DNA of 32,000 nucleotides from Ruminococcus albus 7 = DSM 20455 (GCF_000179635.2 NC_014833.1:2400001-2432000); one strand, 5' to 3'; positions 5,630-22,396 are shown, counted from the first letter of the stretch. Numbers and translations are program-made. Notes: generated by a model from the sequence alone, not told the origin.

Positions 5630-6520
5630 ATGAAATTTGCTGATAAGCTGAGAGAACTCAGAAAACAGGAAAAATTGTCACAGGAGGCACTAGCTGCAAA
5701 GATCGGAGTATCCCGTCAGGCCGTCACGAAATGGGAAACGGAAAGGGGTCTTCCGGATATCGGTAATATCATGGAATTATCCGCTTTGTTCGGTGTCACT
5801 GTCGAAGAACTGCTCGCGGCGGAGGAAACTATTGCCGTGAAACATGAGCCGTTCTATGAAAGCAGAACGGAATACGACATCGCCGGCAATAAGCGGATCG
5901 ATATGCAGCTCGGCGGTGCAAAGCAAATTTTGCTGAAAGGCACTGCAGAAGAAAAACTCATTGTGCGGCTGCTATCTCGCAGCATTGAGACTATTCGTCA
6001 GGATCTCAAGGTTCGGATCGAAGATGAAAGGCAGCGAATTGATGTTCGGGTAAAGTATATGAATCAGATGACAGAAGCTGCAGCCAAGGACGGGCTGGAG
6101 ATCGAGGTCATGCTTCCGAACCGCTACCTTGATCATCTGGAGATGAGGGCGGACTGTTCGGAACTGCGCATTGTGGATTTAAAATGCGATAATATCGAAT
6201 TTACAGGCAAAACAGAACATATATGCATTGAGGATCTGGAGGCTGAATTCGAGGTGGACTGCAATCACGATATCGATATTACCTGTAATGATCTGCACGG
6301 CTCACTTGCGCTGAATCAGATTTCGGCTTCGTCAGTGCTGTACTTACCGGCTGATTTTACGTTCCGCACAGTAGTCAAGGGCTTTGGCAATTCTATTATA
6401 TGGAGTGACGGCGAAAATGGAATTGCTGATTTTTCAACACCGGATGCAGAAAACTACATTGAGCTCAACGGCCTAAAAAGTACTCTGAAGATCATGCTAA
6501 GTACTGCATCGTTGAAATAA
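5630..6520 (+). CDS. XRE-family helix-turn-helix protein fused to a beta-rich C-terminal domain (DUF4097/LiaG-like)
   Basis: The N-terminus LRELRKQEKLSQEALAAKIGVSRQAVTKWETERGLPDI is a classic HTH_3 (Cro/C1) motif. The C-terminal ~200 aa consist of short alternating beta-like repeats (IEVMLP..LEMRADCSELRIVDLKCDNIEF...). They resemble the DUF4097 putative-adhesin fold, assigned by eye only. Confidence 0.7.
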   Translation: MKFADKLRELRKQEKLSQEALAAKIGVSRQAVTKWETERGLPDIGNIMELSALFGVTVEELLAAEETIAVKHEPFYESRTEYDIAGNKRIDMQLGGAKQILLKGTAEEKLIVRLLSRSIETIRQDLKVRIEDERQRIDVRVKYMNQMTEAAAKDGLEIEVMLPNRYLDHLEMRADCSELRIVDLKCDNIEFTGKTEHICIEDLEAEFEVDCNHDIDITCNDLHGSLALNQISASSVLYLPADFTFRTVVKGFGNSIIWSDGENGIADFSTPDAENYIELNGLKSTLKIMLSTASLK

Positions 6521-8823: not shown

Positions 8824-8831
8824 CAGAACAT

Positions 8832-8863
8832 AAAAAACGCACACGTCAAAGTGTGCGTTTTTT
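8832..8863. terminator. bidirectional Rho-independent terminator between convergent genes
   Basis: A-run 8832-8836, 8-bp stem ACGCACAC (8837-8844) / GTGTGCGT (8851-8858), 6-nt loop, then T-run 8859-8863. Confidence 0.8.
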
Positions 8864-8879
8864 ATAATTATGCAAGATT

Positions 8880-9371
8880 TTACAAAGCATTCAGCTTTTT
8901 GCAGAATTCGTCTATCTTTTGTTCGTTAGCGGGGTCGGGCTTATCCTTAGGATCAACAAGATAAAGTTCAGCCTCAACATCTTCAATGCCGAGATATCCC
9001 TTCAATTTGAGGATAGTCTTATCGCCGCCGGCTGCAGTGAAACAAGTAACTGCAGCAAACCTTTTACCTTTGAGAGATGTAAGATTTTCCTCAATAAATG
9101 TACGCAGAGGAGGAGCGATAGTATTAGCCCATACGGGAGTTGCAAAAACAATAAGCTCGTAATCTTCGGCATTGAATGAATACGGCTGTAGTTTGGGTTT
9201 TTCACCCATAATAACACTTTTTCCTCCCCATATAAGCTTTTTGAAGCGAGTATCAGGATAAGCTTTCACAGGATGTATCGGAATAAGCTCCGCCCCAGTC
9301 TGATCCGCTATCTTTTTTACAGCATACTCAGTATTGCCGTTAAGGGAAAAATAAACGATCGCAGTTTTCAT
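8880..9371 (-). CDS. flavodoxin-family protein
   Basis: 163 aa. The N-terminus MKTAIVYFSLNGNTEYAVKKIA contains the flavodoxin phosphate-binding loop pattern. Size and alpha/beta pattern fit, and an AAAGGAG RBS lies upstream. Confidence 0.8.
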   Translation of the reverse strand: MKTAIVYFSLNGNTEYAVKKIADQTGAELIPIHPVKAYPDTRFKKLIWGGKSVIMGEKPKLQPYSFNAEDYELIVFATPVWANTIAPPLRTFIEENLTSLKGKRFAAVTCFTAAGGDKTILKLKGYLGIEDVEAELYLVDPKDKPDPANEQKIDEFCKKLNAL

Positions 9372-9489: not shown

Positions 9490-11757
9490 TTATTGACATG
9501 GCAACTCCTTGGTATTGTTACCGAAAAATCTGTCACACCAACTGTTCACTGCACTAAGCATACCGTCGATATCGAGTACGCCGTATGCAAATCCTTTGCG
9601 CACAAGTTCAGCAGGAAGATATTCGTCGTACTTTTCAAACATCGGGACTTCCTTGGGATATACGAGCTCCATAGGATCGATAGGACGTGATGCTTCTTCA
9701 CGAAGCGTGCTGAAAAAAGTATATTCGTCAGCAGCCATGGTAAACTGTATAAAATACGGTCTACAGCTGTCCAGACCGCGCATACGCAGTTTTTCCCTGC
9801 ATCTTACGTTCAGGAAGCGTTCAAGTGCAAAGAAAGAGTAAGTCCCCAGCCATGGGAAAAGAGCCCACATATCTCCGCCTAAATTTATAAGGTTTTCGCA
9901 GACTATACCTGAATTTCTTGCAGAATATCTTGCCTGGGCAAGTCTTGCGGCAGCGTTCTTCATAAGGTATGGATAGGACTTATCCTCACAAAGCACCTGC
10001 TTCATACGCATGAGTATCTTTGTATTGATATCACCCGGACAATCCCCGAAGTACGCGGGAACTTTACCCTTAACAGGCTCGCAAAATACAAGATGCCGCT
10101 TATGGTCAAGCTCAGTAACAATCCACACCTGACCTGCGATAGCGATCTTTTCACCCACAGGCGGAGGCATAACGAGAGTTCCAAGTTCCTGAGATTCACA
10201 CCTGACAGTATACTCTTCGTTCTCCTGAAAAACAGCAAAGAAACGAAAATTATTGACTACACGCTCACCAGCCAGACCAACTATCAGTCCACCCTCATCT
10301 GTTCGCTGGATATGGTCGATCTCAATAAGGTGGCGCAGAAGAATTTTATAGTCATCAGGCGATATACGATGAAAGTATTTGAGCGTTAGCACCCGCTGAG
10401 CAAGCTGCGCAGGAGTAAGCTCTCCGCATGATGCGAGGGTACTCATGGTCTGGTGATAGAGCAGGCTGAATGGCAGTCTGTCAAGTCTTGGGGGCTCGAC
10501 CCACCTTTCTTCAAGATAAACCTGTATCAACGCTATCCCCTGCAAAAGTTTCCACGGAACTGTAGATGGTAACATGGTGCGCGGATCAGGCATATCTTCA
10601 CGTATAACGAACCACATTTCAGGAGGAAGATCGCGTCTGCCTGTACGACCCATTCTCTGCAGAAATGATGATACAGTAAAGGGTGCATCTATCTGGAATG
10701 CACGTTCTAGTCTGCCGATATCTATGCCAAGTTCAAGTGTGGCTGTAGTGACAGTCGTCATAAAAACATCATCGTCTTTCATGGCAGCCTCGGCAGTTTC
10801 ACGGTAGCTGGTAGACAGATTTCCGTGATGGATGAGAAAACGGTCGCGCTCATGCTTGACTTCACAATATGAACGCAAAGTAGTGGTCACAGCTTCGCAT
10901 TCCTCACGGGAATTTACAAATACAAGGCACTTCTTACCGCGGGTGTGTTCAAAGACGTATCCGATACCGGGGTCGGCATTTTCGGGAGCTTTGTCCGTTG
11001 GCTGTTCAAGTACCGGCAGAGCTTTCTGCGCCTGCTTTCCATCCGCAGCCTGAACATTGCTGATATAGAAATGTTCCATAGAAAGCCGCCATTTAGTGCC
11101 CTTTGCTTCTATCTTCGGGACAGCTGTGCGCCTGCCTGTTCCGTATGAGAGGAACTCCCCCGCTGCCCGGGGATCACCTATAGTAGCTGAAAGTCCTATC
11201 CTGCGTGGATTTACACCTGCCTGTCTGCAAAGACGTTCGATGATACACAAAGTCTGTCCGCCTCTGTCACCGCGCATAAGCGAATGAAGTTCGTCAATAA
11301 CTATGAATCTAAGATCACCGAAAAGCTTAGTAAGCGCCGAATGACGACGTATCAGCATGGCTTCAAGGGATTCCGGAGTTATCTGAAGTATACCCGATGG
11401 GTTCTTCATCATACGTGCCTTGTGTGACTGTGAAACATCTCCGTGCCAGTGCCATACAGGTATGCCTGCGTCCTCACAAAGATCGTTAAGACGTGAAAAC
11501 TGATCGTTTATAAGAGCTTTCAGCGGACCGATATATATAGCTCCGACTGAGCGCGGCATATCCTCCGAAAACAATGTAAGTATAGGAAAGAACGCTGCTT
11601 CAGTCTTACCGGACGCGGTAGATGCTGTAAGCAGCAGATTATCATCGCTATTGAATATAACATCACCAGCTGCAGCCTGGATAGCACGAAGGCTTTCCCA
11701 GTTATTGCGGTATATAAAATCCTGCACGAATGGTGCATATCGGTCAAAAACGTTCAT
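9490..11757 (-). CDS. sngC: Lhr-like DEAD/DEAH-box helicase (Shango SngC-like / BrxHI-like)
   Basis: 755 aa. Motif I ASTASGKTEAA, motif II VIDELH, motif III LSAT. Helicase C-lobe motifs LELGIDIG and QRMGRTGRR are present. A ~330-aa C-terminal extension matches that of Lhr/DEAD_assoc helicases. Confidence 0.75.
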   Translation of the reverse strand: MNVFDRYAPFVQDFIYRNNWESLRAIQAAAGDVIFNSDDNLLLTASTASGKTEAAFFPILTLFSEDMPRSVGAIYIGPLKALINDQFSRLNDLCEDAGIPVWHWHGDVSQSHKARMMKNPSGILQITPESLEAMLIRRHSALTKLFGDLRFIVIDELHSLMRGDRGGQTLCIIERLCRQAGVNPRRIGLSATIGDPRAAGEFLSYGTGRRTAVPKIEAKGTKWRLSMEHFYISNVQAADGKQAQKALPVLEQPTDKAPENADPGIGYVFEHTRGKKCLVFVNSREECEAVTTTLRSYCEVKHERDRFLIHHGNLSTSYRETAEAAMKDDDVFMTTVTTATLELGIDIGRLERAFQIDAPFTVSSFLQRMGRTGRRDLPPEMWFVIREDMPDPRTMLPSTVPWKLLQGIALIQVYLEERWVEPPRLDRLPFSLLYHQTMSTLASCGELTPAQLAQRVLTLKYFHRISPDDYKILLRHLIEIDHIQRTDEGGLIVGLAGERVVNNFRFFAVFQENEEYTVRCESQELGTLVMPPPVGEKIAIAGQVWIVTELDHKRHLVFCEPVKGKVPAYFGDCPGDINTKILMRMKQVLCEDKSYPYLMKNAAARLAQARYSARNSGIVCENLINLGGDMWALFPWLGTYSFFALERFLNVRCREKLRMRGLDSCRPYFIQFTMAADEYTFFSTLREEASRPIDPMELVYPKEVPMFEKYDEYLPAELVRKGFAYGVLDIDGMLSAVNSWCDRFFGNNTKELPCQ

Positions 11758-11926
11758 TATATGCCCTTTCCTTTAGAAGCTGTACTTTTAGTTTTCTGCG
11801 GAATCTTCTGCGCTGACGGACCTTCTCCCTGTGCCAGACCTTGTTATGGTTATTGCACCAGCAAGCAAAATGGCGGTCAAAGCCGTTTTCCTCGGTCATG
11901 TGTTTGTGGATATTACCTTTTCCCAT
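11744..11926 (-). CDS. small basic Cys/His-rich ORF between the ATPase and helicase genes (hypothetical)
   Basis: 60 aa: MGKGNIHKHMTEENGFDRHFACWCNNHNKVWHREKVRQRRRFRRKLK.... It fills the otherwise empty 190-nt gap. A weak AGGG RBS lies 6 nt upstream. Its stop overlaps the helicase ATG by 14 nt, which is a translational-coupling geometry. No family recognised. Confidence 0.3.
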   Translation of the reverse strand: MGKGNIHKHMTEENGFDRHFACWCNNHNKVWHREKVRQRRRFRRKLKVQLLKERAYNERF

Positions 11927-11949
11927 GTTTTACCCTGCTTTTATCACAC

Positions 11950-13266
11950 CTATATCTCAAACTCCGCAAAATCACTTTCGGAAGTTTCTTCCTCTGCGGC
12001 AGGTTTTGAATACTCCATACCGCCAGATGATATGAAATCTGATATCTCGAGTACAGGATTCTGATATGCTATATCCAGCAGTTCAACGAAATCGCGTATC
12101 ACCTCTCGCGGAGTTATGTGGCTGTCAGCGCCGATACGCCCGAATTCCGTCTTGATGAAAACTATCATATCTTCCTGCGTGATGCGCTGTTCATACCCGA
12201 AAAGCTGAGCGTGTATATCGGCTAATTTTTCGGTCAGCACAAGCATTTCTTCATAAGTCAGCGGAACAAGATGTATGACAGGCGCAAGCATATCGCGTAT
12301 GCCCTCACGTCCGAAGCGACCTTCTGCAAGACGCGAACGAAGTGCTTCATAGCTGTACACACCGCGGCGGGTATCCTCGATGCACTGAGGAGTGCCGCCC
12401 ATAATGATACCCAGATACTTGGCTTTGCCCTGTAAAGTATCGTTATACATTGTTAGTATCTTTTCATAGTTGTACTGGCGGGTTATTGCATTAGGTATCT
12501 TGTAGATATTAACCAGTTCGTCCACAAGCACAAGTAATCCGCTGTAACCTGCCATTTTCAGGAACATGGCAAAAAGTTTTATATATTCATACCAGTCATC
12601 ATCGGTGATAACGATATTAACGCCGAGTTCGCTTCTGGCTTCCGTCTTGTTTACATACTCGCCCCTGAACCATTTTACAACTTTCGCTTTCTGTTCATCA
12701 TCACCCGATACAGATGCACGATAGTATATCGTTAAAAGCTTTGCAAAATCGAAGCCATGTACAAGTTCGTTAAGGGCATTTATTACCTCGAATATCTTCT
12801 TTTCAACAGCAGAAGAAAACTCGGGAGTGGATACATCGAGTCCGCTTTCTGAAGCCGCCTGCGCCTGTACACCACTTATCCACCTGTCGAGTATGAGAGT
12901 GAGAGCACCGCCGTCAGGGCGCGTCTTTGTGGACATATTACGGATAAGTTCCTTATATGTTGCAAGACCCTGACCCTTAGTACCCTGCAGACGTCTTTCC
13001 GGGGAAAGATCGGCATCCACCACAACGAAATTCCTGTCCATGACATGGCTGCGTATCGTCTGCAAAAGAAAACTCTTACCGCTGCCGTATTTGCCGACTA
13101 TGAACCTGAATGAAGCACCTCCGTCTTCGATTATATCAACATCGTGAAGCAAAGCGTCAATCTCGACCTCTCTTCCCACGGTGATATAAGGCAGACCTAT
13201 TCTTGGCACAACTCCGCCTTTAAGGGAATTGATGACAGCCTGCGCTATCCTCTTGGGTATCTTCAT
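11950..13266 (-). CDS. sngB: DUF2791/BrxD-like P-loop ATPase (Shango SngB-like)
   Basis: 438 aa. The N-terminal pattern AVINSLKGGVVPRIGLPYITVGREVEIDALLHDV...FRFIVGKYGSGKSFLL (Walker A) and Walker B LLVLVDEL match the BREX ATP-binding (BrxD) family. Its ATG overlaps the upstream stop (ATGA). Confidence 0.75.
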   Translation of the reverse strand: MKIPKRIAQAVINSLKGGVVPRIGLPYITVGREVEIDALLHDVDIIEDGGASFRFIVGKYGSGKSFLLQTIRSHVMDRNFVVVDADLSPERRLQGTKGQGLATYKELIRNMSTKTRPDGGALTLILDRWISGVQAQAASESGLDVSTPEFSSAVEKKIFEVINALNELVHGFDFAKLLTIYYRASVSGDDEQKAKVVKWFRGEYVNKTEARSELGVNIVITDDDWYEYIKLFAMFLKMAGYSGLLVLVDELVNIYKIPNAITRQYNYEKILTMYNDTLQGKAKYLGIIMGGTPQCIEDTRRGVYSYEALRSRLAEGRFGREGIRDMLAPVIHLVPLTYEEMLVLTEKLADIHAQLFGYEQRITQEDMIVFIKTEFGRIGADSHITPREVIRDFVELLDIAYQNPVLEISDFISSGGMEYSKPAAEEETSESDFAEFEI

Positions 13267-14786
13267 GGAAGTATCATTCCTTTCAATTCTTCTTCATAAT
13301 CTTCTATTATCACAGGGGTATCGCCGTCAAACTCAATGACCGTATCAGCAAAAATATCGTAAAGTTTTTCATTTATACTGTCCGCCATAACAGAGGGCAT
13401 AGAACCTACACTTCTAGCAGCCGCCTGATGATCACCGCCGTAAAGCAGTACCTGCATGAATGAATACTCGCCGCTGTCGAGTGGAGTGGTATTTTTCTGA
13501 ACATTCTCTTCGGGAACATCTTCCTGCATATCAGGCTGAGGGATTATATCGTCTTCAAGATCTTCTTCATCGACGATAAGCTTATCCCTCGTGATATCAG
13601 CGGCGCGGCGGATACTTCCGAGCTTAGAAAGGTCGATATCCACACGAAGTTTCTCCGCCTGTCTTTTCTCATCTTGAAGTATGGTCATCTGTTCGTTTAT
13701 AATCTTTGAAAGCTGCTTTGTGATATCGGGAGTCTGCAGCTTGCTTTTGAAATCAAATCCGTTTCGCATTATGCTGTCAACAGCGCGTAAAAAGTCGCCC
13801 ACCTGCTTGTTGCCGTGTGGCTTGCCCGAATATCCCTCTGTGAACCATTCACCGCCTCTGTAAAAACATCTGCGCACATCGTCTATGACCACACAGGTAT
13901 TTGGTGATGATCGGAAATGACAGAACACGGCTGATGAGAACATCTGATGTACTGTTATGACACTGTTACCGAAATACTTCTCGAACAGTGTCTTTTTACG
14001 GTGAGAACCGTAATACTCGGAAAAAGCTTTAAAACTGCGTACTGCCACGGTACGAAAGTCTTCGGGGTAAGCCTTGTAAAAAGCGGACCTTTCAGCATTA
14101 TACGAGGACACGTTGTTAAGGGCTGTAAAGACTTCATCCACAGAATGATCATCTGCATCACGAATGACCTCAAGTGCATTATCAAATTCAAGAATATCTC
14201 CATTTTTCAGTAAAGTGATATCAAGCCCGTAATAAACTACCATATCATCAAGCCATATTGAAAGGAATCTTTTCAATTTTGGCTGGGAATCACCATACTC
14301 ATCGAGCAGGGCTTTCAACCTGTCATAACCCTCCTGCGGAGTTTTGACACCGATGAGATTTAAAAGTTCATAAGCATATACAAAAATATAGGAAAGGCTT
14401 ATTTCCTTGTATTCACCACGCCTTGCACAAGTTCTCCAGGAAAAATAAGTTCTCTGCTGAGGAAGTGTCATATCATTATAGGTGGGAAAATAGTGTTCAA
14501 AGGGAACATCTTTCTCGAAATCGTCCTCAAAGTATGCCATGAAACTGCCCTGTTTGCCGAAAAGCCATTCTCTTGAGCGCCACTGTGCTTCGGGAGAATA
14601 GACCATTCTGCGCATCTCCATAAGCTGAGCGGGAGTATTATCTTTAGGGGGTACAATATCACGTACAAGCTGTGAAGCGCGTTTGAGTATAGGTTCATCA
14701 CGGTAGACTTTTTCTCCGAGTGTTTTGCTCTCACGTATCTTCGGGTCACCCATTATCAATTCGATAAGATCATCGATATTCTTCAC
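13263..14786 (-). CDS. sngA: TerB-N / TerB-C domain protein (Shango SngA-like)
   Basis: 507 aa. The TerB_N-type signature is FPTYNDMTLPQQRTYFSWRTCARRGEYKEISLSYIFVYAYELLNLIG. An acidic linker follows. The TerB_C-type tail is LDSGEYSFMQVLLYGG...MADSINEKLYDIFADTVIEFDGD. GTG start at 14786 with GGAGGTGG 4 nt upstream. Confidence 0.7.
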   Translation of the reverse strand: MKNIDDLIELIMGDPKIRESKTLGEKVYRDEPILKRASQLVRDIVPPKDNTPAQLMEMRRMVYSPEAQWRSREWLFGKQGSFMAYFEDDFEKDVPFEHYFPTYNDMTLPQQRTYFSWRTCARRGEYKEISLSYIFVYAYELLNLIGVKTPQEGYDRLKALLDEYGDSQPKLKRFLSIWLDDMVVYYGLDITLLKNGDILEFDNALEVIRDADDHSVDEVFTALNNVSSYNAERSAFYKAYPEDFRTVAVRSFKAFSEYYGSHRKKTLFEKYFGNSVITVHQMFSSAVFCHFRSSPNTCVVIDDVRRCFYRGGEWFTEGYSGKPHGNKQVGDFLRAVDSIMRNGFDFKSKLQTPDITKQLSKIINEQMTILQDEKRQAEKLRVDIDLSKLGSIRRAADITRDKLIVDEEDLEDDIIPQPDMQEDVPEENVQKNTTPLDSGEYSFMQVLLYGGDHQAAARSVGSMPSVMADSINEKLYDIFADTVIEFDGDTPVIIEDYEEELKGMILP

Positions 14787-14822
14787 GCGCCCACCTCCAA
14801 CCGAAAATCAAGTTATTATTTT

Positions 14823-14851
14823 ATTATAACACAAACCGCTTTCAAATTCAA
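14823..14851 (-). promoter_or_regulatory. SigA-type promoter of the TerB/ATPase/helicase operon
   Basis: Read on the minus strand: TTGAAT (14851-14846), 17-nt spacer, TGtTATAAT (-10 at 14828-14823). It lies ~36 nt upstream of the GTG start. Confidence 0.65.
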
Positions 14852-14877
14852 GTGCGGGCTGTACGTTTCCACGGAAA

Positions 14878-15385
14878 TCAATTTTCAAAAATCACCCTCG
14901 AAATCATCTGCGGCTCCATAAGACATTCAAACATAAGTTTGGATATGGCAGCTTTAGAATTGTTCCGATTTTTAAAGTTCTTGATTAAATTTATCGCAGC
15001 TTTTCTGAACATATTCAGGCATTGCTGAACGTCCTTGCTCTCGACTCTGCACCAGTCCTCTTCAAAATGCACATCAAGCAGCCAGTGCATAGACTCTACC
15101 GACCATTCCATTCTCGCATGATGCAAAAGCTGTTCAGCCGTTAATTCCCGGCTCGACAGATAATAGTGCCATTCACTTGTTCTGCCTTTTTTCGTCGTAG
15201 ATTCGCTGTGTATAGCTCCTATGCACTTCAAGCCTTTCCATTCTTTTTTCTGCTCCAGCCAACCAATATCTGTTGTTACAAACGCTGTCCGTGTTTCGAT
15301 CCTGCCATGATTTTTTTCGGTCTTTGAGACCGTCTGCATTGTACTCCTAAGGTGATCGTCCTGCACAAAATCCTCAATATCTTTT
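14878..15385 (-). pseudogene. ISAs1-family transposase, C-terminal fragment
   Basis: The fragment EDFVQDDHLRS...HGRIETRTAF...MEWSVESMHWLLDVHFEEDW carries the DDE glutamate region typical of ISAs1/H-repeat transposases. The first 12 residues of the listed ORF (TTG start at 15411) are encoded by the IR of the inserted IS1595 element and the duplicated target site, so they are artefactual. Confidence 0.85.
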
Positions 15386-16405
15386 ATGGTTATCCCTTTA
15401 ACACACCACAAGTAAGATCACTGCACCAAAGCAGCCAAAAGCCTTAAATACGCACTGTTTCCCAGCTTACGACGGTTGAATTTGTAGCAGTATTCGGCAG
15501 CATATAACGCTGTGTGGATCTTTTCGTTTCCGTGGTAAGTTCCCATGATCATTGCTTTGAAGTTTGATATAACTTTATGCATCCAGTTCAGCTGACCGCT
15601 TGTCGGATCATATGTTTCAAAAACATGGAAGTATTTCTGTGCCAACGGTTTCTTGTAACTTCGAGCATTATCACTCTCGATCTTCGAGCCTGCGCGGATA
15701 TTATCCCTGGCAAATCTACCAACAGTTATACCCTTTAAATTCGGCACATCGCTCATTTTAACGTACTCGGGATTTCCTGCTGCGTTCTTTGACAAAGCTA
15801 CTATCATCTTGACTTTTTCAGTTCCTCTGCCACGCTTTTTACCGTGAGTCGGAGCACCGAGATACGTGTCATCAAGTTCAACGATCCCGTCAAGCAAATA
15901 GCGTTCTTCACGGCATTTCATAGCTTTTCTGATGCGATGAAGGATGTACCATGCAGTCTTGTAGGTCACCCCCAAAGACCTCATCAGCGTAACAGCAGAA
16001 ACGCTGCATTTGTTGCTCATAATGAGGAATGCGGTGACTATCCACAGTCTGAGCGGAATATGTGTTCTGTGCATAAAAGTTCCGTTGTGGCGGATATATC
16101 TGCTTTACAGAACTTGCATCGCAGCAGATGGCGTGACCTTATCCTGCGGTACTCAGAGCCACCGCAAAACGGGCAGGCAAAACCCTTTTCAAAGCGGATA
16201 TCAAGCAGAAAATCCTTGCAAAAGCTTTCATCTGCGAACTTTGAGTATATCCCATCAAGTGTGATCTCAGGTTTCGGAAATCTTTTTGACATAGCGACAG
16301 CTCCCTTCGGTTTCTGTCACTATTATACTATATTTTCTGAGTTTTGAGGTCTGTTTATTTGGACAGCATTGTAAATTATCTGTGGTGTGTTAAAGGGATA
16401 ACCAT
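15386..16405 (-). mobile_element. IS1595-family insertion sequence nested inside the ISAs1 transposase gene
   Basis: 25-bp perfect terminal inverted repeats: ATGGTTATCCCTTTAACACACCACA at 15386-15410 and its reverse complement at 16381-16405. The element is 1020 bp. 9-bp direct repeats ATATCTTTT lie at 15377-15385 and 16407-16415, with one extra G at 16406. Excising the element and one repeat restores the host frame ...PNLKKDIEDFVQDD.... Confidence 0.85.
15418..16292 (-). pseudogene. IS1595-family transposase, split over two overlapping frames
   Basis: The N-terminal zinc-ribbon is CPFCGGSEYRRIRSRHLLRCKFCKADISATT (16038..16292). The ISXO2-like DDE part is GTFMHRTHIPLRLW...VELDDTYLG... (15418..16074). 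The conserved S.T.GT.F junction needs a -1 shift near 16075-16090. Confidence 0.75.
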
Positions 16406-17026
16406 GATATCTTTTTTCAGATTAGGGTGATTATCTTTAACGCAAAGCAAATAATCCGCCTTCTGTTTTATGATGATCCCGGCAGTCTCTTTCTGGCAGT
16501 TTAGGGCATCTGCAACAACGATTTTTCCCTTGATCTTCAATTCTTTCAGAAGCTCCTGCACCGCAGTTATTTCATTGCTTTTGTCGTCCGTACAACGCTG
16601 AGCGAGAGTCAATCCAAGCTCACATATCTGGGCGCTGATAATGTGCAAAGGGCTTTCGATCTTGTCCATTTTGAGTGTTGAGCAAACAGTTTTTCCGTCA
16701 AGAGAAATTGTCATATCTCTCGATTTTTCGGGCATAAATGAATAGACCCAATCCGCAAAACAGCGGTTGAGAGACTCAGGCTTGACGTATTTAAGCAGGC
16801 TCAATATCCAGTAATAGCAAGGGACATGACCGATTCCGAATTTTTCCTTCAAAAATTCGCTTACTCTGTCATTTGCCGCCCACTGGTGTATCTGATGAAC
16901 ATTTCGCAGTTCACAGATACTGCCAAGGATCGCTATTGTGATGATATCGGGAACGCTGCAAAAATAACCGTCATATTCCTCATAAAGTTCAACATCCTCA
17001 AAATACTCGGTTATTCCATTATCCAT
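16406..17026 (-). pseudogene. ISAs1-family transposase, N-terminal fragment
   Basis: It starts at the ATG at 17026 (MDNGITEYFEDV...). It contains DIITIAILGSICELRNVHQIHQW, ISLDGKTV and VVADALNCQKE (DDE aspartates). The listed ORF extends upstream to 17215, but that part crosses the IS terminal repeat. With the C-terminal fragment it rebuilds a ~372-aa transposase. Confidence 0.85.
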
Positions 17027-17201
17027 GCTTATATTATAGCACCCAGTTGCCGCTATGTCCAGTATTTTGTACACTTTGTAATTGGATTGTGACTTTTGAG
17101 AGTGGTTGTTTTGAAAATTGATTTCCGTGTACGTTTCAACGGACAGCAAAGATTTTTTACATGAAACATCAAAAAAATTTCCGAAAAATCCCGATAAATA
17201 C

Positions 17202-17230: not shown

Positions 17231-17247
17231 ATCTATCGTTGAAATAA

Positions 17248-17345
17248 AATAAGGGGAGCTTGTATACAGGCTGAGAGGATAGCGACCGAGTTATCGACCC
17301 ATAACCTGATTTGGATAATGCCAACGTAGGGAATATGATACCGAT
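17248..17345 (+). promoter_or_regulatory. TPP (THI-box) riboswitch aptamer
   Basis: It contains the conserved elements GGGGAGC...GGCUGAGAGG...GACCC-AUAACCUGAU-UUGGAUAAUGCCAA-CGUAGGGAA in the canonical order. It sits directly upstream of thiS. Confidence 0.9.
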
Positions 17346-17350
17346 CATTC

Positions 17351-17384
17351 GGGGGACTGTTTTTTGCGTGCAGTCCCCTTTTTT
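17351..17384 (+). terminator. riboswitch expression-platform terminator
   Basis: 8-bp stem GGGGACTG (17352-17359) / CAGTCCCC (17371-17378), followed by TTTTTT (17379-17384). Located just before the thiS RBS (GGAGGG 17389-17394). Confidence 0.8.
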
Positions 17385-17400
17385 GTATGGAGGGATGTAA

Positions 17401-17595
17401 ATGGTAAAGTTAAACGGCGAACAGCATGAACTCGCGGGAAAGACCGTTACCGAAATGCTGAACGATAACGGCTACGATCCAAAGCGCGTAGCAGTAGAAC
17501 TGAATCTGGATATACTTCCTAAATCACAGTACGAAAGCACTGTACTCAAGGATGGCGACAGCGTTGAGGTAGTCAGCTTTGTTGGAGGCGGCTAG
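17401..17595 (+). CDS. thiS: sulfur carrier protein ThiS
   Basis: 64 aa with a beta-grasp-sized fold, ending in ...VEVVSFVGGG (C-terminal Gly-Gly). First gene after the TPP riboswitch. Confidence 0.9.
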   Translation: MVKLNGEQHELAGKTVTEMLNDNGYDPKRVAVELNLDILPKSQYESTVLKDGDSVEVVSFVGGG

Positions 17596-18231
17596 ATGAT
17601 CCCATCAAAAGAAGAAATGTATGCCGCACTTGAAGAACGTCACGGAAAAGAACTGCAAAAACTATTTTCGGAAACGGCAGTAGTGATCTGCGGTCTGGGC
17701 GGACTAGGCTCTAATGTTGCAATAAGCCTCGCACGTGCAGGGCTCGGCAGGATACATCTGATAGACTTTGACAGGGTAGATATCTCAAACCTGAACCGTC
17801 AGCAGTATTTTCCCGAACAGCTTGGACAGTACAAGGCAGACGCACTGAAAGATACACTTTTAAAAATAGCACCCTACTGTGATATAACATCTCAGTCGGT
17901 CAAGCTCGACGAAGAAAACATCCCTGTGCTTCTGGCAGATTTTCCAATAGTCTGTGAATGTTTCGACAATGCCGAACAGAAAGCTATGCTGGTAAATTCG
18001 GTGCTTGAAAACTTCCCCGATAAAAAACTGGTGGCAGCCTCGGGAATGGCAGGACTTGGAAGTGCGAACAACATTGTCACCAAAAGGATAGCGCGGAATT
18101 TTTGGCTATGCGGTGACGGCAAGAGCGATGTGAACGAAGGTCTGGGGCTTATATCAGCCAGAGTTGCAGTATGCGCGGCACATCAGGCTACAATGGTACT
18201 AAGGATAATATCAGGCAAGGACGAAGCCTGA
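17596..18231 (+). CDS. thiF: ThiS adenylyltransferase ThiF (short form)
   Basis: 211 aa. E1-like Rossmann motif VVICGLGGLGSNVAISLARAGLGRIHLIDFDRVDISNLNRQ. Its ATG abuts the thiS stop. Confidence 0.85.
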   Translation: MIPSKEEMYAALEERHGKELQKLFSETAVVICGLGGLGSNVAISLARAGLGRIHLIDFDRVDISNLNRQQYFPEQLGQYKADALKDTLLKIAPYCDITSQSVKLDEENIPVLLADFPIVCECFDNAEQKAMLVNSVLENFPDKKLVAASGMAGLGSANNIVTKRIARNFWLCGDGKSDVNEGLGLISARVAVCAAHQATMVLRIISGKDEA

Positions 18232-18250
18232 AAACGAAAGGACGATATAA

Positions 18251-19024
18251 ATGATAAACAATGACAAACTCGTCATAGGCGGACACGAATTCAATTCGAG
18301 ATTCATACTCGGTTCCGGAAAGTATTCTCTTTCGCTTATAAAAGCAGCTGTTGAGAATGCCGGTGCAGAGATCATTACCCTTGCTGTAAGGCGTGCAAAT
18401 ACTAAAGATCAGGAGAGCATACTTGACCATATCCCCGAGGGCGTTACTCTTCTGCCTAACACTTCTGGTGCAAGAAATGCAGAAGAAGCTGTCCGAATAG
18501 CAAGGCTTGCAAGAGAACTTGGCTGCGGAAATTTCGTTAAAATAGAGATCATGCGCGATACCAAGTATCTTCTGCCCGACAATGCAGAAACCATAAAAGC
18601 CACCGAGATTCTGGCAAATGAAGGCTTTGTAGTAATGCCTTATATGTATCCCGACCTTAACACTGCGAGAGACCTTGTTAACGCAGGTGCGGCATCTGTA
18701 ATGCCGCTGGCTTCGCCTATCGGTTCAAACAAGGGTCTTGCAACAAAGGATTTCATACAGATACTGATAGATGAAATAGACCTGCCTATAATCGTTGATG
18801 CAGGCATTGGCAGACCTTCACAGGCTTGCGAGGCTATGGAGATGGGTGCTGCTGCAGTTATGTCAAACACTGCGCTGGCAACCGCCGGCGATCTGCCGAT
18901 GATGGCTGACGCTTTCCGCAAAGCCATAGAAGCAGGCAGACAGGCTTACCTTTCGGGTCTTGGACGAGTGCTTGTAAGAGGTGCATCGCCTTCCGATACA
19001 CTTACTGGATTTCTGAGAGACTAA
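18251..19024 (+). CDS. thiG: thiazole synthase ThiG
   Basis: 257 aa. The stretches [34 protein letters not shown] and [14 protein letters not shown] are typical ThiG motifs. Confidence 0.9.
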
Positions 19025-19036
19025 GGGGTGGATACG

Positions 19037-20287
19037 ATGGAAAATAATTTTCTGTTTGATTCCGAGGGACTTTCCGAAGAAGCATTAAAACGCAAGCACA
19101 AGCTTGAAAATGATCCCTCCTGCCGTACCGACCACATGAAATATATGGAAGGTCAGGAGCAGATAAAAAGTGATATACTCGAAAAGGTAATGACACAGTT
19201 CGACAGCTACGACTACAATGCATATACAGCACTTGATGTTTCACGCGCATTACAGAAAACGACTATCGGGGTTGAGGAATTCAAGGCACTGCTTTCTCCT
19301 GCTGCAGAACCTTTCCTTGAACAGATGGCTGAGCGAGCACGTGTTGAGACCAGAAAGCATTTCGGCAATACGGTTTACCTGTTCACACCGCTGTACATCG
19401 CTAATTACTGCGAGAATTACTGCGTATACTGCGGATTCAATTGCTACAACCATATCCGCCGTATGAAACTGAACATGGAACAGATCGAGCATGAGATGAA
19501 AGTAATTGCAGACAGCGGCATGGAGGAGATACTTATCCTCACAGGCGAAAGCAAGAGCATGAGCGATGTAAAGTATATAGGTGAAGCCTGCAAACTGGCG
19601 CGGAAGTATTTCCGTATGGTAGGCGTTGAGATATATCCCGTGAACGTGGAAGATTACAAATATCTCCATGAATGCGGAGTGGACTATGTCACCGTTTTTC
19701 AGGAAACTTATGATAATGTCAAGTACGAAACTCTCCACCTTGCAGGACACAAGCGCGTATGGCCTTACCGTTTTGAAGCACAGGAGAGAGCACTAATGGG
19801 CGGTATGCGTGGTATTGCTGGTTCGGCGCTGCTGGGACTTTCCGATTTCAGAAAGGACGCACTGGCTACGGGACTGCATATGTACTATCTGCAGAGGAAG
19901 TATCCTCACGCTGAGATATCCCTCTCATGTCCGAGACTTCGCCCGATAGTAAATAATGACAAGATAGACCACATGGATGTTGGTGAAAGACAGCTTTGTC
20001 AGGTACTGTGTGCTTACAGACTTTTCCTGCCGTTTGCAGGTATAACAGTATCTTCCCGTGAAACCAAAAGTTTCCGTGACGGTATAGTGAAGATCGCAGC
20101 CACCAAGATATCCGCAGGAGTTTCCACGGGTATAGGTGACCATGAAAGCAAGTACACCGGCAAGGAAAACGATAACGAGGGCGATGAGCAATTCGAAATA
20201 GCAGATACGAGAAGCTTTGATACCATGTACAAGGATATGTCCGCTGAGGGCTTGCAGCCTGTGCTGAACGATTATCTGTATGTGTAA
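19037..20287 (+). CDS. thiH: 2-iminoacetate synthase ThiH (radical SAM)
   Basis: Radical-SAM cluster motif CENYCVYCGF. Length and position after thiG fit ThiH. The ATG at 19037 (AAGGGG 8 nt upstream) is preferred over the GTG at 19028 in the ORF track. Confidence 0.85.
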   Translation: MENNFLFDSEGLSEEALKRKHKLENDPSCRTDHMKYMEGQEQIKSDILEKVMTQFDSYDYNAYTALDVSRALQKTTIGVEEFKALLSPAAEPFLEQMAERARVETRKHFGNTVYLFTPLYIANYCENYCVYCGFNCYNHIRRMKLNMEQIEHEMKVIADSGMEEILILTGESKSMSDVKYIGEACKLARKYFRMVGVEIYPVNVEDYKYLHECGVDYVTVFQETYDNVKYETLHLAGHKRVWPYRFEAQERALMGGMRGIAGSALLGLSDFRKDALATGLHMYYLQRKYPHAEISLSCPRLRPIVNNDKIDHMDVGERQLCQVLCAYRLFLPFAGITVSSRETKSFRDGIVKIAATKISAGVSTGIGDHESKYTGKENDNEGDEQFEIADTRSFDTMYKDMSAEGLQPVLNDYLYV

Positions 20288-20885
20288 GATCATCTGCATA
20301 ACAAACAGGAAACTGTGCCGCGTAGATTTTTCAGTGCAGTTGGAAAAGATCGCAGCTGCGCAACCTGATATGGTGATACTTCGTGAAAAGGATATGCGGG
20401 AAGATGAGTATAGTATTCTCGCAGAAAAGTCAGCGGAGATATGCAGAAAATATGAAGTACCTTTTGCTGTCAACAGTTTCCGGAATACGGCTCTGAAAAA
20501 AGGAATAAAAAGAATACATCTTCCGCTGCATATCCTTCGTGAACTTACACCTGAAGATAAAGCAGTATTCGATATCATAGGCACATCGGTCCACTCAAAA
20601 GAAGATACAGAAGAAGCTGTTGCACTTGGCGCAGGATACATCATTGCAGGACACATTTTTGAGACCGAATGCAAAAAGGGTCTGGCAGGACGAGGAACGG
20701 ATTTTCTCAAAGAGATCTGCAATACTGTTAAACTGCCCGTTTATGCAATAGGTGGTATAACAGCGGACAATGCTGCTGAATGCATAAAAGCAGGAGCAGA
20801 CGGCATCTGCCTTATGAGCAGTTTCATGCAGGCGGAAAATGTGTCCGAATTTATGGATAGATTAAGAGGTGTAATGAATGGTTAA
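20280..20885 (+). CDS. thiamine-phosphate synthase family protein (ThiE/TenI paralogue)
   Basis: 201 aa. ThiE/TenI-like TIM-barrel pattern (ITNRKL...VILREKDM...VYAIGGIT..N......GADGI). Its start overlaps the thiH stop by 8 nt. ThiE cannot be distinguished from TenI by eye. Confidence 0.65.
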   Translation: MCKIICITNRKLCRVDFSVQLEKIAAAQPDMVILREKDMREDEYSILAEKSAEICRKYEVPFAVNSFRNTALKKGIKRIHLPLHILRELTPEDKAVFDIIGTSVHSKEDTEEAVALGAGYIIAGHIFETECKKGLAGRGTDFLKEICNTVKLPVYAIGGITADNAAECIKAGADGICLMSSFMQAENVSEFMDRLRGVMNG

Positions 20886-21510
20886 TGTAGATGTTACGCT
20901 GTATGCCATAACAGACCGCGGTGCGATCGGTCAGCGTGACTTTTATGAAGCTATAGAGGCAGCCCTAAAAGGCGGCGCGACAATACTTCAGCTGCGCGAA
21001 AAGGGACTTGATGAAGTCAGCCTCATAGAGGAAGCAAAGAAAGTCAAAAATATATGCAGCAGATACGGTGTACCGCTGATAATAAACGATAACTACAAAG
21101 CTGCCATAGCTTCAGGCGCGGACGGTGTACATGTTGGTATTGAGGATGCACCTGTTGCGGAGATAAGATCAAAAGCCGGCAGCGGTTTCATCATAGGAGC
21201 GACTGCAAAAACCGTAGAACAGGCAAAAGCCGCACAGGCAGCAGGCGCAGACTATCTGGGGGTCGGAGCGGTATTTCCCTCCACCACAAAGAAAAACGCT
21301 ATACGCATAACCAATGAACAGCTGCGCGAGATAGCAGCTTCGGTCGATATACCTGTAACTGCTATAGGCGGAATAAGCAAGTCGAATATGACTGAGCTGA
21401 AAGGCTGCGGTGCAGACGGTGCTGCCCTTGTATCAGCAATATTCGCTGCAGAGAATATTGAAACTGAATGCAGAGAATTGAAAAAACTCTCTCAGGAAGT
21501 TTTCAGATAA
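20878..21510 (+). CDS. thiE: thiamine-phosphate synthase ThiE
   Basis: 210 aa. The pattern LYAITDR....ALKGGATILQLREK....LIINDN...GADGVHVG....GATA......GADYLGVG.VFPS.TK....AIGGI is canonical ThiE. It overlaps the previous gene by 8 nt. Confidence 0.85.
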   Translation: MVNVDVTLYAITDRGAIGQRDFYEAIEAALKGGATILQLREKGLDEVSLIEEAKKVKNICSRYGVPLIINDNYKAAIASGADGVHVGIEDAPVAEIRSKAGSGFIIGATAKTVEQAKAAQAAGADYLGVGAVFPSTTKKNAIRITNEQLREIAASVDIPVTAIGGISKSNMTELKGCGADGAALVSAIFAAENIETECRELKKLSQEVFR

Positions 21511-21585
21511 TCAAAACAGCGGCAGCTTGGGGGCACCACCTGCCTGCCGCTATATAAAACCAATGTATCTCGAAAGGAGTATTTT

Positions 21586-22395: not shown

Positions 22396-22396
22396 A

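What the first reader, a model, noticed from the sequence alone, without database searches (positions are those of the whole stretch)
9490..14851. Three-gene TerB-N/TerB-C + BrxD-like ATPase + Lhr-like helicase operon: a Shango-type anti-phage system candidate
**Seen in the sequence**
- Three co-oriented minus-strand genes sit behind one strong extended -10 promoter (14823-14851).
- Gene 1 (13263..14786) carries a TerB_N-type signature (FPTYNDMTLPQQRTYFSWRT...YIFVYAYELLN). It also has a TerB_C-type tail (SINEKLYDIFADTVIEFDGD).
- Gene 2 (11950..13266) is a DUF2791/BrxD-type P-loop ATPase with GKYGSGKSFLL and LLVLVDEL. It is coupled to gene 1 by an ATGA overlap.
- Gene 3 (9490..11757) is an Lhr-like DEAD/DEAH helicase with ASTASGKTEAA, DELH and SAT motifs.

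**Established knowledge**
- TerB-N/TerB-C proteins linked to an AAA/P-loop ATPase and a helicase were predicted computationally as a DNA-processing conflict system. The same triad was later named Shango (SngA/B/C) and shown to protect against phage.
- BrxD plus an Lhr-like helicase also occur as accessory genes of type 2 BREX.
- The mechanism, the sensed signal and the role of the TerB modules remain unknown.

**What is notable here**
- The locus is a compact 5.3-kb islet between housekeeping operons, with no methylase, nuclease or other BREX parts.
- IS elements abut its promoter.
- An extra small ORF lies between the ATPase and helicase genes.
Basis: partly seen in the sequence, partly recalled or inferred. 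Interest (0 to 1): 0.85.

Follow-up and report, generated by a model that had tools for sequence, protein, structure and literature searches.

The report
Shango anti-phage operon in Ruminococcus
This is a complete copy of the already-described Shango anti-phage system (SngA/SngB/SngC) in a Ruminococcus albus chromosome; it is ordinary as a family member, but here it is an old, vertically inherited locus with a fast-changing SngA and an extra small gene whose relatives are found in phages.

Summary
Three intact, co-oriented minus-strand genes lie at exactly the stated coordinates. Each matches the PADLOC Shango model over its full length: SngA 6e-76, SngB 2e-192, SngC 1.4e-274. These scores far exceed the BrxD and BrxHI models. 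No BREX core gene lies within 32 kb. The locus is therefore a bona fide Shango system, a known kind whose mechanism is unknown.

What is new is context.
- Eight Ruminococcus genomes carry the operon at the same site, between the TPP-riboswitch thi operon and suf-like genes. Its synonymous divergence equals that of the flanks, so it is an old chromosomal locus and not a mobile islet.
- SngB and SngC are as conserved as housekeeping genes (dN/dS about 0.02-0.05). SngA evolves about four times faster, and its promoter plus the first 330 codons were swapped by recombination between two near-identical genomes.
- The "extra small ORF" is a real 60-aa gene under purifying selection, and it overlaps the sngC start. 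All its homologues outside Ruminococcus sit in phage replication-gene neighbourhoods.
- An ISAs1 element, itself split by an IS1595 element, inserted 10 nt upstream of the conserved native promoter.

Proposed mechanism (inferred): a variable SngA sensor/adaptor, an ORC/Cdc6-type loader and an Lhr-like helicase act on phage DNA.

The parts
14823..14851 (-). Native sigma-70-type promoter of the operon: TTGAAT, 17-nt spacer, TG-n-TATAAT (extended -10)
   Evidence: One search finds the site. One search shows the -35, TG and -10 elements conserved in all 8 syntenic Ruminococcus loci. It is not carried by the IS.
13263..14786 (-). sngA: 507-aa TerB_N + TerB_C protein. It is the fast-evolving, recombining component and the proposed sensor/adaptor.
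   Evidence: Pfam TerB_N 3.6e-31 and TerB_C 3.3e-22. PADLOC SngA 6e-76 over residues 24-505. dN/dS is 0.09-0.15, against 0.02-0.05 for its partners. The variable core is about residues 90-370, and the N-terminus and TerB_C are conserved. The AF2 model has pLDDT 85 and no significant PDB neighbour.
11950..13266 (-). sngB: 438-aa BrxD-like (DUF2791, ORC/Cdc6-type) P-loop ATPase, translationally coupled to sngA by an ATGA overlap
   Evidence: Pfam BrxC_BrxD 7e-170. PADLOC SngB 2e-192 against BrxD 2e-45. The overlap is confirmed. Walker A GKYGSGKS and Walker B LLVLVDEL are in the translation. dN/dS is 0.02-0.03.
11744..11926 (-). 60-aa basic, all-helical protein gene. Its last 14 nt overlap the sngC start. 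It is a lineage-specific accessory gene of a phage-associated family.
   Evidence: pN is 0.09-0.25 against pS 0.3-0.9 across 8 loci. It is present in 7 of 8 Ruminococcus loci and always overlaps sngC. The family has 243 clusters, and 42 IMG/VR viral contigs carry it. No Shango gene lies near those homologues. It has no Pfam or PHROG hit. The AF2 model has pLDDT 77 and a long helix at residues 28-59.
9490..11757 (-). sngC: 755-aa Lhr/BrxHI-like SF2 (DExH) helicase with a C-terminal extension of about 370 aa and no recognisable nuclease domain
   Evidence: Pfam DEAD and Helicase_C. PADLOC SngC 1.4e-274 against BrxHI 1.5e-124, both full length. The nearest solved structures are YprA/MrfA and Lhr, matching the helicase core only. 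The C-terminal part gives only a sub-threshold WH_Lhr hint. A 100% identical protein is annotated in Ruminococcus albus on a 3,685,408-bp contig.
14870..17129 (-). ISAs1-family insertion sequence with perfect 21-nt terminal inverted repeats. It inserted 10 nt upstream of the -35 hexamer and is specific to this strain.
   Evidence: Inverted repeats at 14870-14890 and 17109-17129. The transposase halves match NF033564 profile positions 1-178 and 179-314. The 8-bp target duplication GAAACGTA lies at 14862-14869 and 17130-17137, and the element is absent from the 7 related loci.
15386..16405 (-). IS1595-family element nested inside, and disrupting, the ISAs1 transposase gene
   Evidence: 30-nt inverted repeats, 93% complementary. 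Pfam DDE_Tnp_IS1595 and Zn_ribbon_IS1595 lie in two overlapping ORFs. NF033547 matches at 5e-48.
17129..17144 (-). Conserved 16-bp palindrome-like box GTCCGTTGAAACGTAC, a candidate operator. In IS-free loci it sits 11-26 nt upstream of the -35 hexamer. Here the IS has moved it 2.3 kb away, and a half-site remains at 14861-14869.
   Evidence: The box is conserved in all 8 loci. It occurs once in the window, against 0.09 expected by chance. Its function has not been tested.

Best explanation
The locus is a complete, probably functional Shango anti-phage system, sngA-sngB-(small gene)-sngC, in the chromosome of a Ruminococcus albus strain. One conserved extended -10 promoter drives it.

**Shown here**
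- All three proteins belong to the Shango families.
- The ORFs and catalytic motifs are intact.
- Selection on them is strongly purifying.
- Gene coupling is tight: an ATGA overlap between sngA and sngB, and a 14-nt overlap between the small gene and sngC.
- The operon encodes no nuclease, methylase or BREX core gene.

**Inferred working model**
- SngA is the specificity or sensing subunit. Its TerB_N and central region diversify and are exchanged by recombination. Its conserved TerB_C end, which looks like a winged helix, docks onto the invariant partners or onto DNA.
- SngB is a stand-alone ORC/Cdc6-type AAA+ ATPase. It loads or licenses SngC, as proposed for the homologous BrxD-BrxHI dyad of type 2 BREX.
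- SngC is an Lhr-like DNA helicase carrying extra DNA-binding modules. It translocates on phage DNA or replication intermediates and blocks replication by unwinding or remodelling, or by exposing DNA to host nucleases, rather than by cutting DNA itself. This would fit the modest 10-100-fold protection reported for Shango.
- In the R. albus group, a 60-aa basic helical protein of phage ancestry is co-translated with SngC and probably modulates it.

Confidence that this is Shango is about 0.95. Confidence in the mechanistic model is about 0.4.
For: - **Family assignment:** PADLOC gives SngA 6e-76, SngB 2e-192 and SngC 1.4e-274, all end to end and well above the BrxD (2e-45) and BrxHI (1.5e-124) models. 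Pfam finds TerB_N, TerB_C, BrxC_BrxD, DEAD and Helicase_C.
- **Co-conservation:** the A-B-C order holds in 11 loci, down to 24% SngA identity.
- **Promoter:** conserved in all 8 syntenic loci.
- **Published phenotype:** Shango protects E. coli and P. aeruginosa, with 10-100-fold EOP effects.
- **Asymmetric evolution:** dN/dS is 0.09-0.15 for SngA, 0.02-0.03 for SngB and 0.02-0.05 for SngC. In distant loci SngA is 39% and 24% identical where SngC is 77% and 49%.
- **Allele swap:** between L003 and L004 the flanks, sngB and sngC are 95-99% identical in nucleotides. The promoter and sngA codons 1 to about 330 are only 70-78% identical.
- **Loader/helicase logic:** BrxD is an ORC/Cdc6 AAA+ ATPase. 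BrxHI is a helicase with wHTH, HAS-barrel and Lhr-CTD-like domains. The two form a tightly linked dyad (PMC12839542). SngC groups with BrxHI, DruE and DpdJ.
- **No nuclease found:**
- **SngA C-terminus:** it has H-H-H-E-E-H topology, and the only local fold matches are to LysR-type wHTH domains.
Against: - Nothing was tested functionally in this organism, and no biochemical data exist for any Shango protein.
- The wHTH resemblance is weak (best Foldseek E 0.48), and the tool did not report which region aligned.
- SngA shows faster evolution but no window with pN/pS above 0.45. Relaxed constraint plus recombination could explain the pattern without any sensing role.
- The housekeeping-like conservation and fixed chromosomal position of sngB and sngC are unusual for a defence system.
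- The IS insertion splits a conserved upstream box, so expression in this strain may be altered.
Confidence: 0.75

Rival explanations
1. The triad is mainly a housekeeping DNA-repair or stress-response module, an Lhr/MrfA-like helicase with a loader and an adaptor. This follows the original 'Ter-linked DNA-processing' prediction. Phage defence would be at most a side effect in this lineage.
For: - The locus sits at the same site in 8 Ruminococcus species-level genomes, and its synonymous divergence equals that of thiG and sufBD (pS about 0.56-0.63).
- sngB and sngC have pN of about 0.03, like housekeeping genes.
- SngC is 78-82% identical across over 100 Ruminococcus and Oscillospiraceae clusters.
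- The nearest solved structures are the repair helicases YprA/MrfA and Lhr.
- The best NCBIfam hit is the ligase-associated DNA-damage DEXH helicase.
Against: - All repair-helicase equivalogs score far below their cutoffs (188 against 850 bits and similar). The Shango profiles fit end to end.
- Shango homologues protect against phages experimentally.
- Recombinational replacement of sngA alleles and an embedded phage-family gene are marks of conflict systems.
Confidence: 0.12
2. SngA works as a TerB-type membrane-surveillance sensor, and the system acts by abortive infection triggered by membrane perturbation, as speculated for TerB-containing systems.
For: Millman et al. and later authors suggest membrane surveillance for TerB-domain defence proteins.
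Against: - SngA here has only TerB_N and TerB_C, with no hit to the classical TerB domain at E <= 0.01.
- The AF2 model is a soluble helical protein plus a small beta unit, with no long hydrophobic helix apparent. No dedicated transmembrane prediction was run.
- No pore-forming or membrane effector gene is present. Both partners are DNA-directed enzymes.
Confidence: 0.08
3. The ATPase and helicase are a leftover BrxD-BrxHI pair from a decayed type 2 BREX system, not a system in their own right.
For: SngB and SngC are clear homologues of BrxD and BrxHI (PADLOC 2e-45 and 1.5e-124; Pfam BrxC_BrxD).
Against: - The Sng-specific models score far higher.
- The BrxD equivalog scores 154 bits against a cutoff of 350.
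- No PglX, PglZ, BrxC or PglW gene, or remnant of one, appears in the 32-kb window or in the 8 syntenic loci.
- sngA is translationally coupled to sngB.
Confidence: 0.03

Closest known systems
Shango (SngA/SngB/SngC): E. coli systems of Millman et al. 2022 and the P. aeruginosa PA14 cDHS1 system of Johnson et al. 2023
   Same: It has the same three protein families in the same order: a TerB_N/TerB_C protein, a BrxD-like ATPase and a DEAD/DEAH Lhr-like helicase. All three match the profiles over their full length. It has no nuclease or methylase.
   Different: - The host is a Firmicute (Ruminococcus).
- The locus is fixed between the thi and suf operons and inherited vertically, rather than lying in a variable defence hotspot or island.
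- It carries an extra 60-aa gene, and ancestrally also a FlaR-like kinase gene, between sngB and sngC.
- No phenotype has been tested.
BrxD-BrxHI dyad of type 2 BREX (Pgl)
   Same: The ATPase (ORC/Cdc6-type AAA+) and the helicase (SF2 core plus C-terminal DNA-binding modules) are homologous, and they occur as an adjacent pair.
   Different: There is no PglX, PglZ, BrxC or PglW. The pair is instead joined to a TerB_N/TerB_C protein. The BrxD equivalog cutoff is not reached.
Lhr and YprA/MrfA DNA-repair helicases
   Same: The SF2 DExH helicase core is the closest to these at sequence level among solved structures (E 8e-28 and 1e-25).
   Different: Similarity is limited to about residues 27-376. 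The C-terminal half does not match, and the repair-family equivalogs score far below their cutoffs.
Other TerB-linked defence systems (Bunzi BnzA, Dionysus DinB)
   Same: They share the 'Ter' vocabulary, and the role of the Ter-type module is unknown in each.
   Different: Those proteins carry the TerB domain proper together with membrane or pore-forming partners. SngA carries TerB_N and TerB_C only, with DNA-directed partners.

Membership tests
Shango (SngABC) | SngA: a protein with TerB_N and TerB_C domains that matches the SngA profile | tested here: met
   Pfam TerB_N 109 bits (cutoff 25) and TerB_C 79.7 bits (cutoff 26.3). PADLOC SngA 6.1e-76, covering residues 24-505 of 507.
Shango (SngABC) | SngB: a DUF2791/BrxD-like P-loop ATPase that fits SngB better than BrxD | tested here: met
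   PADLOC SngB 2e-192 (638 bits) against BrxD 2.3e-45 (154 bits). Walker A and B motifs are intact.
Shango (SngABC) | SngC: an Lhr/BrxHI-like DEAD/DEAH helicase that fits SngC better than BrxHI | tested here: met
   PADLOC SngC 1.4e-274 (911 bits) against BrxHI 1.5e-124. Helicase motifs I, II, III and VI are present.
Shango (SngABC) | The three genes are contiguous, co-oriented and co-conserved | tested here: met
   The A-B-C order lies on one strand with an ATGA overlap. The same order holds in the related loci L001-L009 and L011; L010 is cut off within sngB.
Shango (SngABC) | Confers resistance to phage infection | not testable with these tools
   Only published results for the E. coli and P. 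aeruginosa homologues are available.
Type 2 BREX (Pgl) | Core genes pglX (methyltransferase), pglZ, brxC and pglW lie next to brxD-brxHI | tested here: not met
   Pfam and PADLOC scans of the flanking ORFs find only thi, suf-like, ABC, flavodoxin, IS and HTH genes.
Type 2 BREX (Pgl) | BrxD equivalog score at or above NCBIfam's curated cutoff | tested here: not met
   NF033438 scores 154.5 bits against a cutoff of 350.
Classical Ter (tellurite-resistance) TerB proteins | Presence of the TerB domain itself | tested here: not met
   At E <= 0.01 Pfam returns only TerB_N and TerB_C, with no TerB-domain hit.
Lhr / MrfA (YprA) / ligase-associated DEXH repair helicases | Full-length match above the family's curated cutoff | tested here: not met
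   TIGR04121 scores 188 bits against 850, PRK13767 159 against 849 and PRK09751 88 against 1496. PDB matches cover the helicase core only.

The most novel reading that the evidence does not exclude
The 60-aa basic helical protein, encoded between sngB and sngC and translationally coupled to sngC, is a phage protein that the host has domesticated as a fourth Shango component in the R. albus group. It would act as a modulator or 'safety catch' of the SngC helicase.

Its many homologues sit in the replication-gene neighbourhoods of large rumen and gut phages. These would be helicase- or DNA-directed factors that could act as natural Shango inhibitors or triggers. Together with the exchangeable sngA alleles, this would give a natural handle on what Shango senses.
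Probability: 0.2. Interest if true: 0.7.

Novelty: new member of a known kind. Interest (0 to 1): 0.4.

Why it matters
Shango is one of many validated defence systems with no known mechanism. This locus does not change what Shango is, but the Ruminococcus series offers natural experiments.
- **Component roles:** SngB and SngC are nearly invariant, while SngA is a recombining, fast-evolving component. This points to SngA as the specificity determinant, and allele swaps could test that directly.
- **Accessory genes:** the operon holds lineage-specific extras, a small gene of a phage family and a FlaR-like kinase. These could reveal partners, regulators or phage counter-measures.
- **Inheritance:** a 'defence' operon can be a stable, vertically inherited chromosomal feature. 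This bears on whether Shango also has a DNA-maintenance role.

Tried and rejected
- **Solved structures by sequence:** none were found for SngA or SngB.
- **SngA fold:** a Foldseek search of the AF2 model against PDB gave nothing significant (best E 0.48). Only about 70-residue local matches to LysR-type wHTH domains appeared. I treat these as a hint only.
- **Small protein:** there were no Pfam, PADLOC, NCBIfam or PHROG hits. Its AF2 model had no BFVD or PDB fold match.
- **SngC C-terminal half:** Pfam at E <= 10 gave only WH_Lhr at E 0.053. No nuclease was found.
- **Positive selection on SngA:** sliding pN/pS never exceeded 0.45, so I claim only faster evolution plus recombination.
- **Kinase link to phage homologues:** I tested whether the FlaR-like kinase accompanies the small gene in phage contigs. 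It does not.
- **BREX-remnant reading:** rejected.
- **Anantharaman 2012 paper:** it could not be retrieved, so its prediction is cited only through the papers that quote it.
- **SngC structure:** not predicted.

Full report
**1. Observation**

The minus strand of the window holds three large, intact ORFs at exactly the stated coordinates.
- 13263..14786 encodes 507 aa and starts with GTG, 7 nt after GGAGGTG.
- 11950..13266 encodes 438 aa.
- 9490..11757 encodes 755 aa.
- A 60-aa ORF lies at 11744..11926, between the second and third genes.

The first two genes overlap by ATGA.

A promoter-like site, TTGAAT-17 nt-TATAAT preceded by TG, lies at 14851..14823. Such sites are no more frequent in this region than in shuffled sequence (15 found, 16 expected). 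What gives this one weight is that it is conserved in every related locus.

**2. Identity**

Pfam finds the following.
- Gene 1: TerB_N (3.6e-31) and TerB_C (3.3e-22).
- Gene 2: BrxC_BrxD (7e-170).
- Gene 3: DEAD and Helicase_C.

The PADLOC models made for Shango match all three proteins end to end.
- SngA scores 6.1e-76.
- SngB scores 2e-192, against 2.3e-45 for BrxD.
- SngC scores 1.4e-274, against 1.5e-124 for BrxHI.

NCBIfam's BrxD equivalog reaches only 154 bits against a cutoff of 350, and the repair-helicase equivalogs fall far below their cutoffs.

The rest of the window is as follows.
- On one side lie a TPP riboswitch (17242-17350) and thiS-F-G-H-E-E-D-C.
- On the other side lie flavodoxin, a SufBD-like gene and ABC ATPase genes.
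- There are also two insertion sequences, and generic HTH, ABC and WYL proteins.
- No methyltransferase, PglZ, BrxC, PglW or nuclease is present.

The locus therefore passes every testable membership criterion for Shango and fails those for type 2 BREX. Shango was described by Millman et al. 2022 and by Johnson et al. 2023, with 10-100-fold EOP effects in P. aeruginosa. Papers up to 2025-2026 still call its mechanism unknown.

A protein 100% identical to SngC is annotated in Ruminococcus albus on a 3,685,408-bp contig. From memory, that is the chromosome size of R. albus 7.

**3. Comparative context**

A scan of species-representative genomes gave 11 related loci.

*Synteny and age*
- In eight Ruminococcus genomes (L001-L008) the operon sits at the same site as here. 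thiF and thiG lie divergently upstream, and (flavodoxin)-sufBD-ABC lie downstream.
- For the window against L001, synonymous divergence of the three sng genes is pS 0.59-0.63. That of thiG, sufBD and the ABC gene is 0.56-0.59.
- The operon has therefore been inherited with the chromosome and is not a recent islet.

*Uneven evolutionary rates*
- SngB and SngC evolve like housekeeping genes, with pN about 0.03 and dN/dS of 0.02-0.05.
- SngA has dN/dS of 0.09-0.15.
- In more distant loci SngA is 39% and 24% identical where SngC is 77% and 49% identical.
- Database-wide, over 100 SngC clusters are 78-82% identical to the query, while the SngA hits below the closest Ruminococcus-group relatives (rank about 19 onward) are 35-46% identical.
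- Variation in SngA concentrates in residues of about 90-370 and in a disordered linker at about 405-435. The first 75 or so residues and the TerB_C part are conserved.

*Allele replacement*
- L003 and L004 are 95-99% identical in nucleotides through the flanks, sngB and sngC (pS 0.11-0.16).
- They drop to 53-78% identity from the promoter region through sngA codon 330 or so (sngA pS 0.51).
- This is a clear recombinational replacement of the sngA allele.
- No window reaches pN/pS above 0.45, so positive selection is not demonstrated.

**4. The small ORF**

The ORF is a real gene.
- It is present in 7 of 8 Ruminococcus loci and always overlaps the sngC start codon.
- Its pN is 0.09-0.25 against pS of 0.3-0.9.

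It belongs to a previously unnamed family.
- Members are basic proteins of about 55-70 aa, with consensus MKxNIHKKxTFEDKFDRKYACWxxNHxKxWxxxKxRNRRxFRRK.
- An exhaustive HMMER search found 26 representatives at 50% clustering. A profile search found 243 clusters.
- The family has no Pfam or PHROG model.

Every homologue examined outside Ruminococcus lies in a phage context.
- These comprise 42 IMG/VR viral contigs of up to 176 kb, plus metagenomic contigs of about 61-139 kb and 277 kb.
- They lie in arrays of tiny genes next to RNA ligase, HNH endonucleases, metallophosphoesterase, DNA primase, DNA helicase and clamp-loader-like genes.
- None has a Shango gene nearby.

The AF2 model (pLDDT 77) shows three short helices packed on one long basic helix at residues 28-59. 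It has no structural neighbour.

Five related loci also carry a 163-165-aa FlaR-like 'DNA topology modulation' P-loop kinase gene between sngB and the small gene (PRK08118, E 5e-38, below cutoff).
- The gene is decayed in L001 and L006.
- It is absent from the window and from L007.

The distant loci L009 and L011 have neither extra gene. The R. albus-group operon is thus a lineage-specific variant that once had five genes. The window keeps four.

**5. Insertion sequences and regulation**

- An ISAs1-family element spans 14870..17129. It has perfect 21-nt inverted repeats and an 8-bp target duplication, GAAACGTA.
- It inserted 10 nt upstream of the -35 hexamer.
- Its transposase gene is split exactly at profile position 178/179 by a nested IS1595-family element at 15386..16405, which has 30-nt inverted repeats.
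- The seven related loci where this upstream region could be aligned lack both elements.
- The insertion split a 16-bp palindrome-like box, GTCCGTTGAAACGTAC. In all eight loci this box lies 11-26 nt upstream of the -35 hexamer. It may be an operator.
- The core promoter is untouched.
- No convincing terminator separates sngC from the downstream flavodoxin gene. A strong hairpin follows flavodoxin at 8829-8866.

**6. Mechanism (inferred)**

- *SngB.* It is homologous to BrxD, a stand-alone ORC/Cdc6-type AAA+ ATPase.
- *SngC.* It is homologous over its full length to BrxHI, an SF2 helicase followed by wHTH, HAS-barrel and Lhr-CTD-like DNA-binding modules. BrxD and BrxHI form a tightly linked dyad, and BrxD has been proposed to load or activate the helicase. 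SngC's nearest solved relatives are YprA/MrfA and Lhr. It groups with the defence helicases BrxHI, DruE and DpdJ.
- *SngA.* It has no solved homologue. Its confident AF2 model (pLDDT 85) has no significant PDB neighbour. The only recurrent local matches are LysR-type winged-helix domains, which fit the C-terminal H-H-H-E-E-H topology of TerB_C.
- *Working model.* The variable TerB_N and central part of SngA recognises a phage-derived cue. The conserved TerB_C end couples it to SngB and SngC or to DNA. SngB loads or licenses SngC, and SngC unwinds or remodels phage DNA. No nuclease is encoded, so interference would be non-nucleolytic or would depend on host nucleases.
- *A caveat on TerB.* SngA lacks the classical TerB domain. 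The 'membrane surveillance' idea borrowed from TerB therefore has little support here.

**7. Rivals**

- A housekeeping DNA-repair role is the most serious alternative, because of the fixed position and the very strong conservation. Profile scores, the published phenotypes, the sngA allele exchange and the embedded phage-family gene all argue against it.
- The BREX-remnant reading is effectively excluded.
- The membrane-surveillance reading is weak.

**8. Verdict**

The system is a new member of a known kind that standard tools detect, so its intrinsic novelty is modest and I score interest at 0.4. The added value lies in three points: the evolutionary asymmetry that marks SngA as the variable module, the old chromosomal fixation of the locus, and the phage-family small gene embedded in the operon.

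Noticed in passing
window 14870-17129 (nested element 15386-16405): Nested insertion sequences. An ISAs1-family element has perfect 21-nt inverted repeats and an 8-bp target duplication, GAAACGTA. Its transposase gene is cut at profile position 178/179 by an IS1595-family element, whose own transposase lies in two overlapping ORFs (Zn-ribbon 16038..16292 and DDE 15418..16074), so it is probably frameshifted. The ISAs1 end (…TTTCCGTG) regenerates a near-copy of the sequence it split.
   Followed up: yes
window 17129-17144 (intact copy) and 14861-14869 (half-site); L001-L008 upstream of sngA: A conserved 16-bp palindrome-like box, GTCCGTTGAAACGTAC (consensus GTCCRTTnAnAYGKAC), lies 11-26 nt upstream of the -35 hexamer in all eight Ruminococcus loci. 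It may be an operator, and no cognate regulator was identified. In this strain the IS separates it from the promoter.
   Followed up: partly
L002, L003, L004, L005, L008 between sngB and the small gene (e.g. L005:9380-9877); remnants in L001 and L006: A 163-165-aa FlaR-like 'DNA topology modulation protein' P-loop kinase gene (PRK08118, E 5e-38, below cutoff) is part of the operon in five related genomes. It is decayed in two and missing in the window and in L007.
   Followed up: partly
L016-L057 (IMG/VR), L012-L015, L058-L060: An unnamed family of basic helical proteins of about 55-70 aa (243 clusters) occurs in large phage-like contigs, next to primase, helicase, RNA ligase, HNH and metallophosphoesterase genes. 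It has no Pfam or PHROG model and no structural neighbour.
   Followed up: partly
L003 vs L004, about 9690-11000 in locus coordinates: Two genomes that are 95-99% identical across the region differ by 22-47% from the sngA promoter through about codon 330. This is a recombinational allele replacement confined to the variable part of sngA.
   Followed up: yes
L007, between the promoter and the sngA start (about 190 nt extra): One related locus has an insertion of about 190 nt in the 5' leader between the conserved -10 element and the sngA start codon. Its nature is unknown.
   Followed up: no
window 8880-9371 (-) and 8829-8866: The flavodoxin gene lies directly downstream of sngC on the same strand, with no convincing terminator between them. 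It is absent from L003, L004 and L008. A strong bidirectional hairpin terminator follows it, so co-transcription with the operon is possible.
   Followed up: partly
window 17242-17350 (+) and 17350-23710: A TPP riboswitch (Rfam RF00059, 61 bits) is followed by a complete thiamine operon: thiS, thiF, thiG, thiH-like, two thiE, thiD and thiC. It is transcribed divergently from the Shango promoter.
   Followed up: yes
window 5630-6520 (+); L009:7543-7725; L010:998-1228: An XRE/HTH_3 protein of 296 aa lies about 3 kb from the operon. The distant Shango loci L009 and L010 have an HTH gene with 43-49% identity to its N-terminal domain about 1.5 kb upstream of sngA. This may be generic HTH similarity.
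   Followed up: no
window 28112-29173 (-): A WYL-domain protein (PADLOC WYL 2e-11) lies about 13 kb from the operon. No linked defence genes were seen.
   Followed up: no
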